From: Mytilus edulis
Taxonomy: Eukaryota
NCBI RefSeq assembly: GCF_963676685.1
Contig: NC_092347.1
Span: forward strand, 3,472,001 to 3,536,000
Length of the DNA: 64,000 nt
Reading direction: 5' to 3'
The position numbers were made by a program. Shown piece after piece: positions 42,001-48,000 of this stretch (the stretch's first letter is position 1; every line of letters begins with the position of its first letter).

Positions 42001-45000
42001 GGATTGGGGACTCATCTTTGATAATTTTTAACCGAAAGTGTCAACTTTGTATTTACACATTTACAACAGAATAGAATTAGTGGTTTTGAGAATAACTTAA
42101 AGACAAAAGTTTAAGGACCAGCACAAAAAAAAAACCCCAACATTTTCTTTACATTTTGAAAAAAAGTTGAATTCTAAAGTAAAAATTGGATATTTTTATG
42201 TCCACCATTTTGGATATTACAGGAAGTAAGGGTTTTAAAGACATATGTCTTATACATGGTATCCACAAGAAGCACAAAAAAAAAAGGTTCCTGCACAATG
42301 TAATGATAGTAGCAATACGTTTGAACACATTTCAAATACCCTCCCTAAAAAATAAGTATATTTTAGTACAATGTCCGCCATGTGGATTTTACCGGAAGAA
42401 GGGTTTTTGAAGACATATAATCTATATAATATATCCAAAAGTAGTACATAACAAAGGTTTGTACCAAAAATGTTGATAGTAGCATGATAATAACACCTTT
42501 TCACATACTAGCCATCGATATTGGGCTGATTTAAGTATGATGTCCGCCATCTTGGATTTTACCGGAAGTGAGATTTTTTTTCCAAATGCCTCCCTATCTG
42601 AAATAAAAGAGTTATAGTCTATGCCAAATTTCATACTTGTAGCAGGATGTGCACAATTTTTCACAAAGCCGCCGTACTACAAGGGCAATTAGTCAATATT
42701 CTTATAGCTGTTCTGAATATTTTTCTAAAAATTCATACAGTTTATATTTCCAATTTGAAATGGCATAGTATTTATCTAAAATTATAATTTAATTTCGGAC
42801 ATAATAAAACGATTCAACCTTGCAACCTGACCATGCACTTTATGTAATTGAACAGATGAAGCAGATATTGCTATTCAAGTTTATAATACCCGTTTGTCAA
42901 TTTTTTGTTTACAGATGTAACGCAAGTTTTATATTTAATTTAGATTATTATTAATGACGTTTAATTTTCCGAGTTGAACCAATTATCTGTAAGGGGACAA
43001 ACTATTACAATACTACCAGATGCTCGTGTTTGAATATTGTGTTGGTGGCCCGATATCTGATAGGTTTCATCCCGTGTGCGAAATTGAGTATTGAATAACA
43101 ATATTTGAGATATCCAACTCTCACGAGGTATTGCAACTATTCATCATATGGTTAACAGTCTTTCTGCGTCAAACGATAACATAATGCATTTTAAAAATCA
43201 TTGAATGCTGCAGTATGTAATCAAATTTGACAAAAAAAGATATTTTCATATAAAAATGTGAGTCTTTTGTGTATAGTTGGAGAAATCACATTTATATTGC
43301 CATGGAAAAAATGTACATCTTTTTTACACTTGTAGGTCACCTTAGACATAATCAATAGCCAATGTACATGTCACAGTATCGTTTCATGATACATTTTTTT
43401 TCCATCACGCTCTGTGTAGTTTGATCCTAGAAATATCTCTTCATATGAGAGAAATATGTTACAGGCCACAACCACACAATTATGTTTGTTAAATTTATTT
43501 ATAAAAAGCTTTATCTATTGTATAGATATGAGACAATATCTGAAAAGTATAATTTCCATGTCCCGCACTTCACCAGCATTTATTTGTTTATTCAACCATC
43601 TTTTTTTAAAATTTTAAGTTTCAGTATAAACTAAATTTTATAATGCACCAACTCCTGCCAATTAACACTCATACTTATGTTTCTTCTTTTTTATAGTTCT
43701 GTGACGAAAAAGGTTTAAGTATGGGGACTTACACTAAAGTGTATATTCTTGTGTTTGTCCTTAGTTGTTTGGTGTCTACGTTTCACATGTCCAAGGACGA
43801 CAAATGCCAAGTATACTCTTTAACAGGGTTACCCTAAAAATCTCTGGTAGCGTGATTAAGGGAATCATGGTCACATAAATAGATAAATGGATCCTGGTGT
43901 AGCCTGAACAAAGTCTTGCAATTTAACATAAACACAAAAGTCGACTAAAAGTTCAATACTGTATTATTCAAAATCCAAAGTACATGTAACGGTAATACAA
44001 GTTTACAACATCTTAACTGCTGACTCAACAATACGGTGACATAATCCTAAATACGTACACTCCTCTCGTACACAAATCGTATTTCCTTCTATATCATATA
44101 TCGTCTATCTTCTCACTATCTATTTCTCTCTTTCATACTACTCTAGTATTCTGATTACAATATGGTTAAATGACTCTGAACAAAGAAATCTTCTACAGCA
44201 GCTATACTACAGGAGCCCAGAGCCCAGGGCTATTAGGACTAGGATAGGAGTAAGAGGGCATTTCATCTGAATCATAGGGCGTATCGCTTTCATCCATTAT
44301 GGTGCGAGCCTCCCCAGTTCTTCGTCTCTATTCGGACCATGTTTGTGGAGCGTTGTCTGTTTCCTGACCATTAAGAACGAAATTCCATATTAATTTTAAA
44401 ACAATTGTTCAAATTAATAGTCTTATTATCACCAAAAGCCAAATCATCACGTATTCCTGAGATTTTCTGTACAACCCGCGGGTTGTAAGGGAAATAAATC
44501 CATGCTGATGCGACGAGGCCGCTACTGAGTGTAAGCAAAATAACCCATACTTGCCAAAATTTCTTCCAACCATTTTCTCCTTTCTTTTCCGTATTGCTCA
44601 TCTTCTGGATAACTCTATAATGATTTTTTCTTGGGTAACAGTGCCTGATGTTCCGGCGATACCGGACCTCTGGCATAGTCTCCGTATGAATATCATTAAG
44701 AAGACGTCCAGTGGCAGGCGAACTACCTAACCCAGAATCTGCTGGGGAAATTACTTGATTTCTAAAGCAATACTGCCTTACCTTAGAGAGCGTTGGAGCC
44801 TGAGTTGATGTTCGTGTTGTTCTTCTTGGTGTTTCCATTGTATAATCTCTAGCAAGTTCGTTGAAGTCATACACAGTAAATCCCACCGCTGCCACCAATG
44901 TGACGAAAAATGTTTAAGTATGGGGACTTACACTAAAGTGTATATTCTTGTGTTTGTGCTTTGTTGTTTGGTGTCTACGTTTCACACGTCCACGGACGAC

Positions 45001-48000
45001 AAATGCCAAGTATTCTCTTTAACAGGGTTACCCTAAAAATCTCTGGTAGCGTGATTAAGGGAATCATGGTCACATAAATAAATAAATGGATCCTGATGTA
45101 GTCTGAACGAAGTCTTGCAAGTTAACTTAAACACAAAAGTCGATTAAAAGTTCAATACTGTATTATTCAAAATCCAAAGTACATGTAACGGTAATACAAG
45201 TTTACAACATCTTAACTGCAGGCTCAACAATACGGTGACATAATCCTAAATACGTACACTCCTCTTGTACACAAATCGTATTTCCTTCTATATCATATAT
45301 CGTCTATCTTCTCACTATCTATTTCTCTCTTTCATACTACTCTAGTATTCTGATTACAATATGGTTAAATGACTCTGAACAAAGAAATATTCTACAGGAG
45401 CTATATAACACGAGCCCGGAGCCTAGAGCTAAGGTCAACCAACACTGAGGTCAACCGAGGCACCTGTATAAATAAAGCAACGGGGCACCAGCTGATTAAC
45501 ATGATTGATTTGACATTTAACAAGTACAATCTGATTGAAGGCGATAAAAATAGATTGTAAGGAATTACTTTATAACGGTTAATGAGAATAAATAATCTAA
45601 TTATACCATGATAATAAAATCCAATGATGCATGTAATAAAAGAAAAACGTTACAGTTCGTTATTATGTTGTACTGTTATACCACTGTCCCAGGTTAGGGG
45701 AGGGTTGGGATCTCGCTAACATGTTTTACCCCGCCACATTTTGTATGTATGTGCCTGTGTTACATATTTGTTTTTCGTTAATTTTTTGTAGATAAATAAG
45801 GCCGTTAGTTTTCTCGCTTGAATTGTTTTACATTGCCATTTCGGGGCCTTTTATAGCTGACTATGCAGTATGGGCTTTTCGCATTGTTGAAGGCCGTACG
45901 GTGACCTATAGTTGTTAATTACTGTTTCGTTTTAGTCTCTTGTGGACAGTTATCTCATTGGCAATCATATCTCATCTTCTTTTTTTAGTAAGTCAGTAAG
46001 TATGGTCGTGCTGTGTTGCTTCGGTTTGACATATTTGAAGAGTTTTATGCTTACATATTTACTGCATACAGAAACAGTTATCTTGAAATCTCGACTCTGC
46101 ATTTTTGATAGTATCCGACGATAAATGTTATGGACGATAACTCGCATAACACACAAGTATTATTGATACACTTCAGAATTTTTCACAAACTAATCCAAGT
46201 TCAGGTAATTTTACATGAGGCAGAATTAACCCATGGTAAAACCCAAAGTTTTTCATCTGCCCGTCATAAAGTTCATCTGTCTGTAGAAGTATAAGTCATA
46301 GTTTATGATATCTTATACATAGATGCGTCTTGAATAACCAAGAAATAGAAATAAGGTTATCTTGAACGACAATGTAGCTCAAAGCCAATAGTAACTTATA
46401 AAAATACTTATCTAAGACTAAAATATTACTCAGTACACATCAAATGGATTTAGTAGAGAAGTCATTGACAGTCAGAGAAAAACATAATCCTGTACAATGA
46501 TATAGTTATCGAGAGATGTGTAAAACCCTGCATATGCACATTTATTAAAAAAAAGTGTATAGTTTGATGTTTGATTTTAATTAAAACAATACATGAATAT
46601 CAATAAAACAAAATTAAAATATCTAATTACAGTGATGAATCGGTAACCTTTTAGAAAAAGTTTATTAAGAGGATCGATAAGTGTAACCGTATTATATCTA
46701 CATTTCCGGGACCGTTAAATTACACTTTCGTAAAATTTAGGTTCTGCTATTCCGTTCAAAATATGTTTTAAATGGGTACAACCAAACCCCCAAACCAACT
46801 CTTCGTATTGATTGATGCATTTACCAGTGATACATAGATTACGTTCATTGAAATCCCAAACGTCACGTGTGTTACAGACACAGGCATAGCCGAACACACT
46901 GTGAAATATAAACATTGTAAGATGGTTTCAAAAGGGTGTCAAGTCTCACTCATATCCTGACTTGACTTACATCTAGAAATTGACAATGATGGTCGATTGA
47001 AAACAAAACATTACCTAACTTTAAATTTCTGTGTAGCAACATTCCAGCAGCACCTGCATGTAAGTTATATATCTGCAGGTTTATACGATATTCCAGTGCT
47101 TGCATTTCCTATCATGATCTCATTGATAGGGGATTGCTGCTTACATGGATTTTGTTAACCATGAATTCTTTGTGATAGTATTTAAATCAACCCTTTGAAA
47201 ATTTTACGAATGCCATCATGAGTTGATTGCAATTGACCGTAATGGAATATCTGTGTCATAGATGACGAATGATGGTTTCTAATTTTCGTACCGACAATAC
47301 CGTCCTTTTCCCCAAAAAGATCTACCGAATTAGACCTATCACCGTTTTTTTTTACTAACATGAGCTATTCGGCGGGTTTTGGATGTGTTCGTGTTGCTAA
47401 GTCTCTTGGTTTTTGTTGTTGTTTTTTTCGCTATTGTGTTTTCATTGTAAATTTGACGACTTAAGAGTTTGAATGTTTCTTAAGTATCTTGTGTCTTTCT
47501 TGTGTTTCGATGTACAGTGAAACCTGTTTTAAGAGACCACTTAATCTGCTTACCCTTCCGGAGCACCTGAGATCACCCTTAGTTTTTGGTGGGGTTCGTG
47601 TTGCATATTCTTTAGTTTTCTATGTTGTGTCATGTGTACTATTGTTTGTCTGTTTGTTTTTTTCATGTTTAGCAAAGGGATCTAAAACTAATGGTCTTCT
47701 AACACAGATTTTTGCTTAATACAGATGGTATCTTGAGCAGTTTTGATTGTATATGGTTTTGAAAAACAATGTTAGATATTATGTACTAGCAGTGCTTGTT
47801 TTTTTTATATTTGTAAACGTTATTAAATCATCATTTGCTGTTAACTATTATCTGTTTAAAAAAACCATGATGTCATTTTTCATGTGCATATATCAAAGGT
47901 GATCGATATTCTACTTCAATTAAGCGAAACATTTCTTCCCTTTTCAGTAGTAACGAACAATGAAATTGTCTTTTAACCTATTATTTAACTACTCGAGATG

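What the first reader, a model, noticed from the sequence alone, without database searches (positions are those of the whole stretch)
43700..45654. Small LTR element with perfect tRNA-Leu PBS, asymmetric LTRs and no gag/pol
Seen: TG...CA termini, a GTTC target duplication splitting a dispersed repeat, an 18-nt PBS and ~96% identical repeats. The 5' LTR is 756 bp (45654-44899). The 3' copy shares only its last ~530 bp, and identity falls sharply in the ~30 bp at the junction (44200-44232). No polypurine tract is visible. The ~670-bp interior holds one open non-gag ORF. Known: reverse transcription makes both LTRs identical at insertion. Inference: this is either a deletion after insertion through imperfect homology, or a cargo-carrying non-autonomous family with unusual architecture.
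Basis: partly seen in the sequence, partly recalled or inferred. Interest (0 to 1): 0.72.

Follow-up and report, generated by a model that had tools for sequence, protein, structure and literature searches.

The report
Internally deleted mussel Gypsy retrotransposon copy
This is a worn-out copy of a mussel Ty3/Gypsy-type retrotransposon that lost most of its inside and part of one end repeat in a single deletion, an ordinary way for such elements to decay.

Summary
The structure is real. A minus-strand LTR element lies at 45654-43700, with TG..CA ends and a 4-bp target duplication. Two paralogous copies of the target repeat carry that 4-mer only once. The 5' LTR is 756 bp. The PBS is 18 nt and identical to the printed complement of tRF-Leu-AAG. 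The 3' LTR is a 533-bp remnant, 95.5% identical to the 5' LTR, and no polypurine tract adjoins it.

The interior is not a non-gag cargo. From the ATG at 44838 to 44226 it is colinear with residues 1-213 of a 528-aa Mytilus edulis protein that a source names a retrotransposon gag-domain protein (182 of 203 codons identical). It carries 1 frameshift, 2 stops and a 10-residue gap. A 1055-aa M. coruscus relative and a 944-aa oyster relative continue into protease and/or RT and RNase H, and the nearest solved RT named for an element is Ty3's.

Best reading: one post-insertion deletion ran from gag codon ~213 into U3, with a 7-nt near-match at the joint.

Whether other copies share this junction could not be tested, because no mussel genome DNA was on hand. 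The finding is ordinary and of low interest. One side observation: this lineage's gag begins with a conserved pair of hydrophobic helices.

The parts
43696..43699 (.). Target-site duplication, left copy (GTTC on the + strand)
   Evidence: Paralogs of the target repeat hold one GTTC at this site.
43700..44232 (-). 3' LTR remnant: the last 533 bp of the LTR (part of U3, then R and U5), ending in CA
   Evidence: blastn: 95.5% over 533 bp, no gaps. Alignment A1. K2P distance 0.046, or 0.034 without the first 50 columns.
44183..44232 (-). Junction zone of lower LTR-LTR identity (8 mismatches in 50). Its outermost 7 nt (44226-44232) also belong to the gag homology.
   Evidence: Three of the 8 mismatches make one 14-nt unit look like its neighbouring unit (13 of 14 against 11 of 14).
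44226..44838 (-). Broken gag fragment: the first ~213 of ~528 codons of the family's gag-type protein. It has 1 frameshift, 2 in-frame stops and a 10-residue gap, and it is cut off at the deletion.
   Evidence: Frameshift-aware alignment to P0009: 182 of 203 codons identical, outer bounds only. tblastn. Homologues.
44839..44879 (-). Leader between the PBS and the gag ATG
   Evidence: The gene model P0003 (M. galloprovincialis) translates the same PBS-leader stretch: 18 residues, 83% identity, E 4.8e-8.
44880..44897 (-). Primer binding site, 18 nt, one base after the 5' LTR
   Evidence: The letters are identical to the printed tRF-Leu-AAG inhibitor/mimic pair (PMC9161985 Table 1; listing).
44899..45654 (-). 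5' LTR, 756 bp, TG...CA
45432..45654 (-). The first 223 bp of the 5' LTR (5' part of U3), which have no counterpart in the 3' copy
   Evidence: No other copy in the window.
45655..45658 (.). Target-site duplication, right copy (GTTC on the + strand)
45655..45985 (+). Copy of an unnamed dispersed repeat into which the element inserted (the target, not part of the element)
   Evidence: blastn hits at 23404-23685, 37188-37557 (reverse strand) and 28406-28635. Alignment A2.

Best explanation
A full-length Ty3/Gypsy-type LTR retrotransposon of a Mytilus mussel inserted here once, into a copy of a dispersed repeat. The insertion made a 4-bp duplication and two identical 756-bp LTRs.

Later, in the chromosome, a single deletion of several kb removed the rest of gag, all of pol, the polypurine tract and the first 223 bp of the 3' LTR. 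It joined gag codon ~213 to U3 at a 7-nt near-identical patch, which points to illegitimate or microhomology-type recombination.

What is left is LTR, PBS, leader, the first 40% of gag and a partial LTR. It has kept decaying and cannot copy itself.

Shown: the anatomy, the single insertion event, the gag identity of the interior, the decay counts and the overlap at the joint. Inferred: that the deletion came after integration, its size, and its mechanism.
For: - One insertion event. The 4-mer is identical on both sides, and two paralogs of the target repeat hold it once.
- The interior is gag. Window 44838..44226 is colinear with residues 1..213 of P0009 (528 aa, M. edulis; UniRef name 'Retrotransposon gag domain-containing protein'), with 182 of 203 codons identical.
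- The same N-terminus runs on into the gag core, protease and RNase H in P0018 (1055 aa; PF17919 E 1.8e-11).
- The gag core sits in front of RT and RNase H in the oyster protein P0033.
- A profile of these proteins hits the Ty3 Gag-Pol chain 7q5b_A (1.3e-9) and the RT/RNase H chain 4ol8_A (1.1e-10).
- Gag homology ends at 44226 and LTR homology starts at 44232, so the two overlap by 7 nt.
- The polypurine tract is absent.
- Decay: 1 frameshift, 2 stops and a 10-residue gap in gag; 24 of 533 LTR mismatches.
- Established knowledge of reverse transcription says both LTRs are copied from one U3-R-U5 template, so unequal LTRs point to a later change.
- Loss of LTR-retrotransposon DNA by deletions flanked by microhomology is described for plants (PMC1940013, passages read).
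Against: - No other copy of the family could be examined as DNA. The window holds none, and no eukaryotic genome collection was on hand. So neither the uniqueness of the junction nor the existence of a full-length partner with this very LTR is shown.
- The 'gag' label is not confirmed by domain or fold searches. It rests on position in the polyprotein, a source's name and weak signals. Pfam gives no significant gag domain (DUF1759 in 4 of 9 proteins, best E 0.031, below cut-off). The fold search gave 0 matches at E <= 0.001, on a poor model (mean pLDDT 41.9).
- The cluster of 8 mismatches beside the joint is not explained by a plain deletion.
- Six short gene models of the family end 0-18 residues after P0009 residue 210-222, close to this copy's breakpoint at 213. 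This is unexplained.
Confidence: 0.84

Rival explanations
1. A non-autonomous family. A deletion derivative made of LTR, PBS, the gag N-terminal module and a short 3' repeat is copied in trans by full-length relatives, and this is one of many copies with the same junction.
For: Several short gene models that keep only the N-terminal module exist in M. coruscus and M. galloprovincialis (P0001-P0008). Fourteen of the 17 library representatives are shorter than 300 aa. Six models end 0-18 residues after P0009 residue 210-222.
Against: A copy made by reverse transcription would have two equal LTRs and needs a plus-strand primer site. Here the LTRs are unequal and no polypurine tract adjoins the 3' copy. 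None of the 33 proteins reads from gag into the LTR as this junction does; the one LTR match (P0032, 22 residues, E 0.002) comes from inside that protein. The models that reach the breakpoint go on with gag sequence (A5). The frame is decayed.
Confidence: 0.06
2. The asymmetry arose during reverse transcription, before integration. A template switch from U3 to gag during minus-strand synthesis would make the element unequal at birth.
For: The 7-nt near-match at the joint would also suit a template switch.
Against: In the standard model the 5' LTR's U3 is copied from the same minus strand. A jump that removed the 5' part of U3 and the polypurine tract should therefore shorten both LTRs, or block plus-strand priming. 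The full 756-bp 5' LTR argues against it (inference from established knowledge).
Confidence: 0.05
3. Assembly artefact: a full-length element was collapsed or mis-joined between gag and U3 by the assembler.
For: The window is a draft with a 133-N gap at 39628-39760, and repeats are prone to collapse.
Against: Gag and U3 share only ~7 nt at the joint, far too little for an overlap-based collapse. The two LTR copies differ at 24 sites, as expected of two real, separately assembled copies.
Confidence: 0.04

Closest known systems
Truncated or internally deleted LTR retrotransposon copies made by illegitimate recombination (described for rice in PMC1940013, passages read; Devos et al. 2002 seen only in that paper's reference list)
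   Same: Two LTRs, one of them incomplete. An internal region with a large deletion. A short patch of near-identity at the joint. The target duplication is intact.
   Different: The host is a mussel, not a plant. There is a cluster of substitutions beside the joint, which the passages I read do not mention.
Ty3 of yeast (PDB 7q5b, 'Transposon Ty3-G Gag-Pol polyprotein')
   Same: Among solved structures named for an element, Ty3 gives the best match to the RT-RNase H part of the relatives' profile (E 1.3e-9; the top hit, 4ol8_A at 1.1e-10, is named only 'Reverse transcriptase/ribonuclease H'). An LTR element with TG..CA ends, a tRNA-type PBS and a short target duplication.
   Different: This copy has no pol at all. 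The family's gag has a ~230-residue N-terminal extension with two hydrophobic helices. No Pfam model or PDB sequence matched that extension.
Steamer-like elements of Mytilus (MchSLE1; PMC11046912, passages read)
   Same: A Ty3/Gypsy-type LTR retrotransposon of mussels.
   Different: MchSLE1 has 185-bp LTRs, a PBS for tRNA-Asn and a polypurine tract. This element has a 756-bp LTR and a tRNA-Leu-type PBS.
Non-autonomous LTR elements (the TRIM and LARD types; these names are recalled, and the only such papers I saw were search listings)
   Same: Small size (1955 bp), LTRs and a PBS without pol.
   Different: Those families have two equal LTRs, a polypurine tract and a non-coding or foreign interior. 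Here the LTRs are unequal, there is no polypurine tract, and the interior is the family's own gag start.

Membership tests
LTR retrotransposon (structural definition) | Direct terminal repeats ending TG...CA | tested here: met
   The 3' repeat is incomplete at its 5' side.
LTR retrotransposon (structural definition) | Short target-site duplication flanking the whole insertion | tested here: met
   The 4-bp GTTC is present on both sides. Two paralogs of the target repeat hold it once.
LTR retrotransposon (structural definition) | PBS complementary to a tRNA 3' end, next to the 5' LTR | tested here: met
   18 of 18 letters against the printed human tRF-Leu-AAG. The mussel's own tRNA-Leu was not available.
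LTR retrotransposon (structural definition) | Polypurine tract next to the 3' LTR | tested here: not met
   Its absence is expected if the deletion spans it.
Ty3/Gypsy (Metaviridae) | pol with the order protease - RT - RNase H - integrase | tested here: inconclusive
   This copy has no pol. The relative P0018 has protease (below the Pfam cut-off) and then RNase H (PF17919, above the cut-off). P0033 has RVT_1 and RNase H domains. Both proteins end before any integrase.
Ty3/Gypsy (Metaviridae) | RT/RNase H closest to Ty3-type enzymes | tested here: met
   Profile A4 against PDB sequences: 4ol8_A 1.1e-10 and 7q5b_A (Ty3) 1.3e-9, with retroviral RTs at 1e-5. This was tested on relatives, not on this copy.
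Ty3/Gypsy (Metaviridae) | Recognisable gag/capsid domain | tested here: inconclusive
   No Pfam gag hit above cut-off. No PDB sequence hit. Poor model (pLDDT 41.9). Fold search: 0 matches at E <= 0.001, yet 12 of the first 20 rows are capsid-type proteins such as PNMA2, Arc, MLV and HIV CA.
Non-autonomous LTR family (TRIM/LARD-like, cargo-carrying) | Many copies with the same architecture at different sites | not testable with these tools
   No mussel genome DNA was on hand. The window holds no second copy. The scan of bacterial and archaeal genomes found 0 relatives.
Non-autonomous LTR family (TRIM/LARD-like, cargo-carrying) | Interior unrelated to the gag/pol of the autonomous partner | tested here: not met
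   The interior is colinear with gag residues 1-213.
Steamer-like elements | ~185-bp LTRs and a tRNA-Asn PBS (MchSLE1) | tested here: not met
   756-bp LTR and a tRNA-Leu-type PBS.

The most novel reading that the evidence does not exclude
The interior is more than debris. This Gypsy lineage's gag starts with a ~230-residue module that holds two membrane-helix-like segments, kept from mussels to an oyster. Elements reduced to LTR, PBS and this module could then be a recurrent form copied in trans that still expresses the module. This copy would be one such element, and the short gene models that end near residue 210-222 would be others.
Probability: 0.07. Interest if true: 0.5.

Novelty: new member of a known kind. 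Interest (0 to 1): 0.12.

Why it matters
It matters little on its own. It is a clean, well-bounded example of how LTR retrotransposons are eroded in a bivalve genome: a single deletion with a short near-match at the joint, both ends of the insertion still in place, and a paralogous 'empty site' alongside.

It is useful for annotation. The 155-codon ORF should not be called a gene. The same holds for the short Mytilus gene models P0001-P0008, and for a chimeric model such as P0013, which fuses a phosphatase/RhoGAP gene with the gag start.

The conserved hydrophobic hairpin at the start of this lineage's gag is the only point that may deserve a study of its own.

Tried and rejected
- Other copies in the window: none for the LTR or the interior.
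- tRNA genes in the window: none.
- Pfam on the ORF and on the relatives: no gag domain above cut-off.
- PDB sequence searches: hits to RT/RNase H only. P0009 alone gave a single chance-level hit.
- ESM Atlas with P0009 residues 1-230: no usable hit.
- Genome-contig scan with the gag alignment, hoping for host contamination in microbial assemblies: 81 pattern matches, 0 relatives. I did not use the second scan this allowed.
- The listing of cluster members for P0019, P0020 and P0009: the database was switched off, so the sources of these proteins stay unknown.
- Structure of P0009: accepted at the sixth request. The model is poor, and its fold search gives nothing significant.
- Steamer-like identity: rejected.
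- The idea that the true LTR is ~510-530 bp and the extra 223 bp are foreign: rejected. The paralogous site places the end of the insertion exactly at 45654/45655.
- The idea that the low-identity zone is gag sequence: rejected. Gag homology ends at 44226.
- Papers on a transmembrane gag in bivalve or Metaviridae elements: two searches found nothing relevant. This shows only that it is absent from that library.
- Not checked: the collections metagenome contigs and viral contigs, which were closed; any eukaryotic genome DNA; and supplements of papers, which were closed. The family lists in the supplements of PMC6238403 might name this family.
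Full report
**1. What is in the sequence**

Read on the minus strand, the element runs from 45654 to 43700. It starts TGTAAC and ends GTCACA, and GAAC flanks it on both sides.

- The 5' LTR is 44899-45654, 756 bp.
- The only other match to it in the 64-kb window is 43700-44232: 533 bp, 95.5% identical, no gaps (blastn, alignment A1).
- The first 223 bp of the 5' LTR (45432-45654) therefore have no partner.
- One base after the 5' LTR lies an 18-nt PBS, 44880-44897.
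- No tRNA gene is in the window.
- The same 18 letters are printed as the tRF-Leu-AAG mimic, and their complement as its inhibitor, in Table 1 of PMC9161985 (passage read). They occur in 14 papers of the library, mostly as a 3' fragment of tRNA (listing).
- The PBS is thus a perfect complement of the 3' end of a human tRNA-Leu fragment. The mussel's own tRNA-Leu could not be checked.
- No polypurine tract adjoins the 3' copy.

**2. One insertion event**

The right flank, 45655-45985, is a copy of an unnamed dispersed repeat. Other copies lie at 23404-23685, 37188-37557 (reverse strand) and 28406-28635.

- Two paralogs read ...TTTTTATA-GTTC-GTTCTTATG... across the site, with a single GTTC.
- This locus has ...TTTTTATA-GTTC-[element]-GTTC-GTTATTATG....
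- The left flank follows the paralogs for only 8 uninterrupted nt beyond the duplication (18 of the last 36). This copy of the target repeat is therefore short or diverged on that side.
- Even so, the ends of the insertion are fixed at 43700 and 45654. The 223 extra bp belong to the element as it inserted.

**3. The interior is the start of gag, not cargo**

The 155-codon ORF that opens at 44838 has no Pfam match. It does have Mytilus relatives.

- Eight proteins at E <= 0.01 among 40 candidates of similar length, 70-76% identical for the best ones.
- Ten longer proteins at E <= 0.001 among 430 candidates. These include P0009 (528 aa) and P0010 (542 aa) of M. edulis, which UniRef names 'Retrotransposon gag domain-containing protein'.
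- A frameshift-aware alignment, of which I kept only counts and outer bounds, places window 44838..44226 on residues 1..213 of P0009. It gives 182 of 203 codons identical, 1 frameshift, 2 in-frame stops and a 10-residue gap. tblastn agrees.
- P0018 of M. coruscus (1055 aa) shares the whole of P0009 at 45% identity (E 1e-134). It runs on into an aspartyl protease (PF13975, E 0.0023, below cut-off) and RT_RNaseH_2 (PF17919, E 1.8e-11, above cut-off).
- A search with the gag core alone among long proteins returned 2 of 302 candidates: P0018 and P0033 of the oyster Saccostrea cucullata. P0033 is 944 aa, with precomputed RVT_1 and RNase H domains, and its gag core is 52% identical over 205 residues.
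- A profile of nine relatives (A4) hits the RT/RNase H chain 4ol8_A (1.1e-10) and the Ty3 Gag-Pol chain 7q5b_A (1.3e-9). Retroviral RTs come next at 1e-5.
- The family is thus Ty3/Gypsy-like.
- The gene model P0003 (M. galloprovincialis) even translates the PBS-leader stretch (18 residues, 83%). The PBS and leader are therefore shared by another copy.

Against the 'gag' label:

- Pfam gives no gag domain above cut-off. DUF1759 appears in 4 of 9 proteins, best E 0.031.
- PDB sequences give no capsid hit.
- The AlphaFold model of P0009 is poor: mean pLDDT 41.9, pTM 0.23.
- Its fold search has 0 matches at E <= 0.001. Even so, 12 of the first 20 rows are capsid-type proteins, such as PNMA2 (best E 0.17), Arc, MLV and HIV CA.
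- 'Gag' therefore rests on position in front of protease, RT and RNase H, on a source's name, and on weak fold hints.

**4. The joint**

Gag homology ends at 44226, and LTR homology begins at 44232. The 7 shared nt are 6 of 7 identical to the 5' LTR.

Next to the joint the LTR pair is less alike.

- There are 8 mismatches in the first 50 columns against 16 in the other 483 (Fisher p 7.9e-4).
- A window that dense occurs somewhere in 831 of 20000 permutations.
- Three of the 8 mismatches turn one 14-nt unit into a near copy of its neighbour (13 of 14 against 11 of 14). They may be one short templated patch.
- Which LTR carries the change cannot be told without further copies.

**5. How it most likely came about**

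Reverse transcription copies both LTRs from one U3-R-U5 template (established knowledge). Unequal LTRs within a single insertion therefore point to a later change in the chromosome.

- One deletion from gag codon ~213 to U3 base ~223 accounts for three things at once: the short interior, the missing polypurine tract and the missing U3 part.
- From the relatives' sizes, about 315 gag codons plus pol were lost, that is several kb (inference).
- Deletions with small patches of microhomology are a described route of LTR-retrotransposon loss (PMC1940013, passages read).
- The copy went on decaying (LTR K2P 0.034-0.046; broken frame).

**6. Rivals**

- **A family copied in trans with this same junction.** It would have equal LTRs and a plus-strand primer site. 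None of the 33 proteins held reads from gag into the LTR as this joint would, and the models that reach the breakpoint go on with gag (A5). One oddity stays open: six short gene models end 0-18 residues after P0009 residue 210-222, near this copy's 213. Three of them end the same distance after a shared glycine, apparently in another frame. This could be an indel-prone spot or an assembly error.
- **A template switch before integration.** It should also have shortened the 5' LTR.
- **An assembly collapse.** It is unlikely with only 7 nt in common.

**7. What could not be done**

- The scan of bacterial and archaeal genomes found 81 pattern matches and 0 relatives.
- The collections metagenome contigs and viral contigs, and supplements of papers, were closed.
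- The N run at 39628-39760 was left alone.
- The three VWC2L-like ORFs of the host gene were scanned one by one.

**8. Comparison and verdict**

- The copy works like, and is, a truncated Ty3/Gypsy-type LTR retrotransposon.
- It is not a Steamer-like element, which has 185-bp LTRs and a tRNA-Asn PBS (PMC11046912, passages).
- It does not meet the marks of a TRIM/LARD-type family.
- The family itself seems restricted. phmmer with the ORF against 1.84 billion representatives gave 17 hits at E <= 0.001 and 12 at E <= 1e-10, nearly all matched from at or near their own start.
- The finding is ordinary and of low interest.

Noticed in passing
Relatives P0009-P0011 and P0014-P0018, and oyster P0033. 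In the window, the gag fragment 44226-44838.: The gag-type proteins of this lineage begin with a ~230-residue extension that has no Pfam match. It holds two hydrophobic 19-residue segments, at about residues 95-115 and 127-147, in 8 of the 8 long relatives examined (P0012 and P0013 were not examined). The model shows them as two long helices, 89-115 and 120-160, with pLDDT 56-72. The oyster protein aligns there at 25% identity, pairwise E 2e-5. Two paper searches found no description of this.
   Followed up: partly
Window 34786-34829 (+), 25874-25917 (-), 57308-57351 (-), 56052-56095 (+): Four type I hammerhead ribozyme motifs (RF00163), one above the gathering score (35 against 34 bits) and three below it. 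They sit inside dispersed ~240-nt repeats. This fits the mussel retrozymes described in PMC7229834 (passages read).
   Followed up: partly
Window 1418-1750, 9347-9721, 13838-14209 (minus strand): ORFs with VWC / VWC2L-like domains, E 1.6e-16 to 2.3e-9, probably exons of one or two host genes. Repeats with 4.2-4.4 kb spacing (6413-6709 with 10614-10910, and 4937-5187 with 9351-9601) suggest a local duplication. The exons were not joined.
   Followed up: no
Proteins P0001, P0003, P0006, P0008, P0022, P0032: Six short gene models of the family end 0-18 residues after P0009 residue 210-222, close to this copy's breakpoint at residue 213. Three of them end the same distance after a shared glycine, apparently in another reading frame. 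The cause is unknown.
   Followed up: partly
Protein P0013 (M. coruscus, named INPP5B_F): This gene model fuses the gag N-terminal module (P0009 residues 1-244) to phosphatase and RhoGAP domains. It is probably a mis-annotation across a retrotransposon remnant.
   Followed up: no
Window 23358-23685, 28406-28635, 37188-37603, 45655-45985, with weaker copies at 7616-7851 and 25219-25453: An unnamed dispersed repeat of ~330-420 bp, which is the target of the insertion. It has no Rfam match.
   Followed up: partly
Window 4198-4342, 10444-10585, 22958-23244, 63636-63841: Short tandem arrays with periods of 29, 38, 152 and 31 nt.
   Followed up: no
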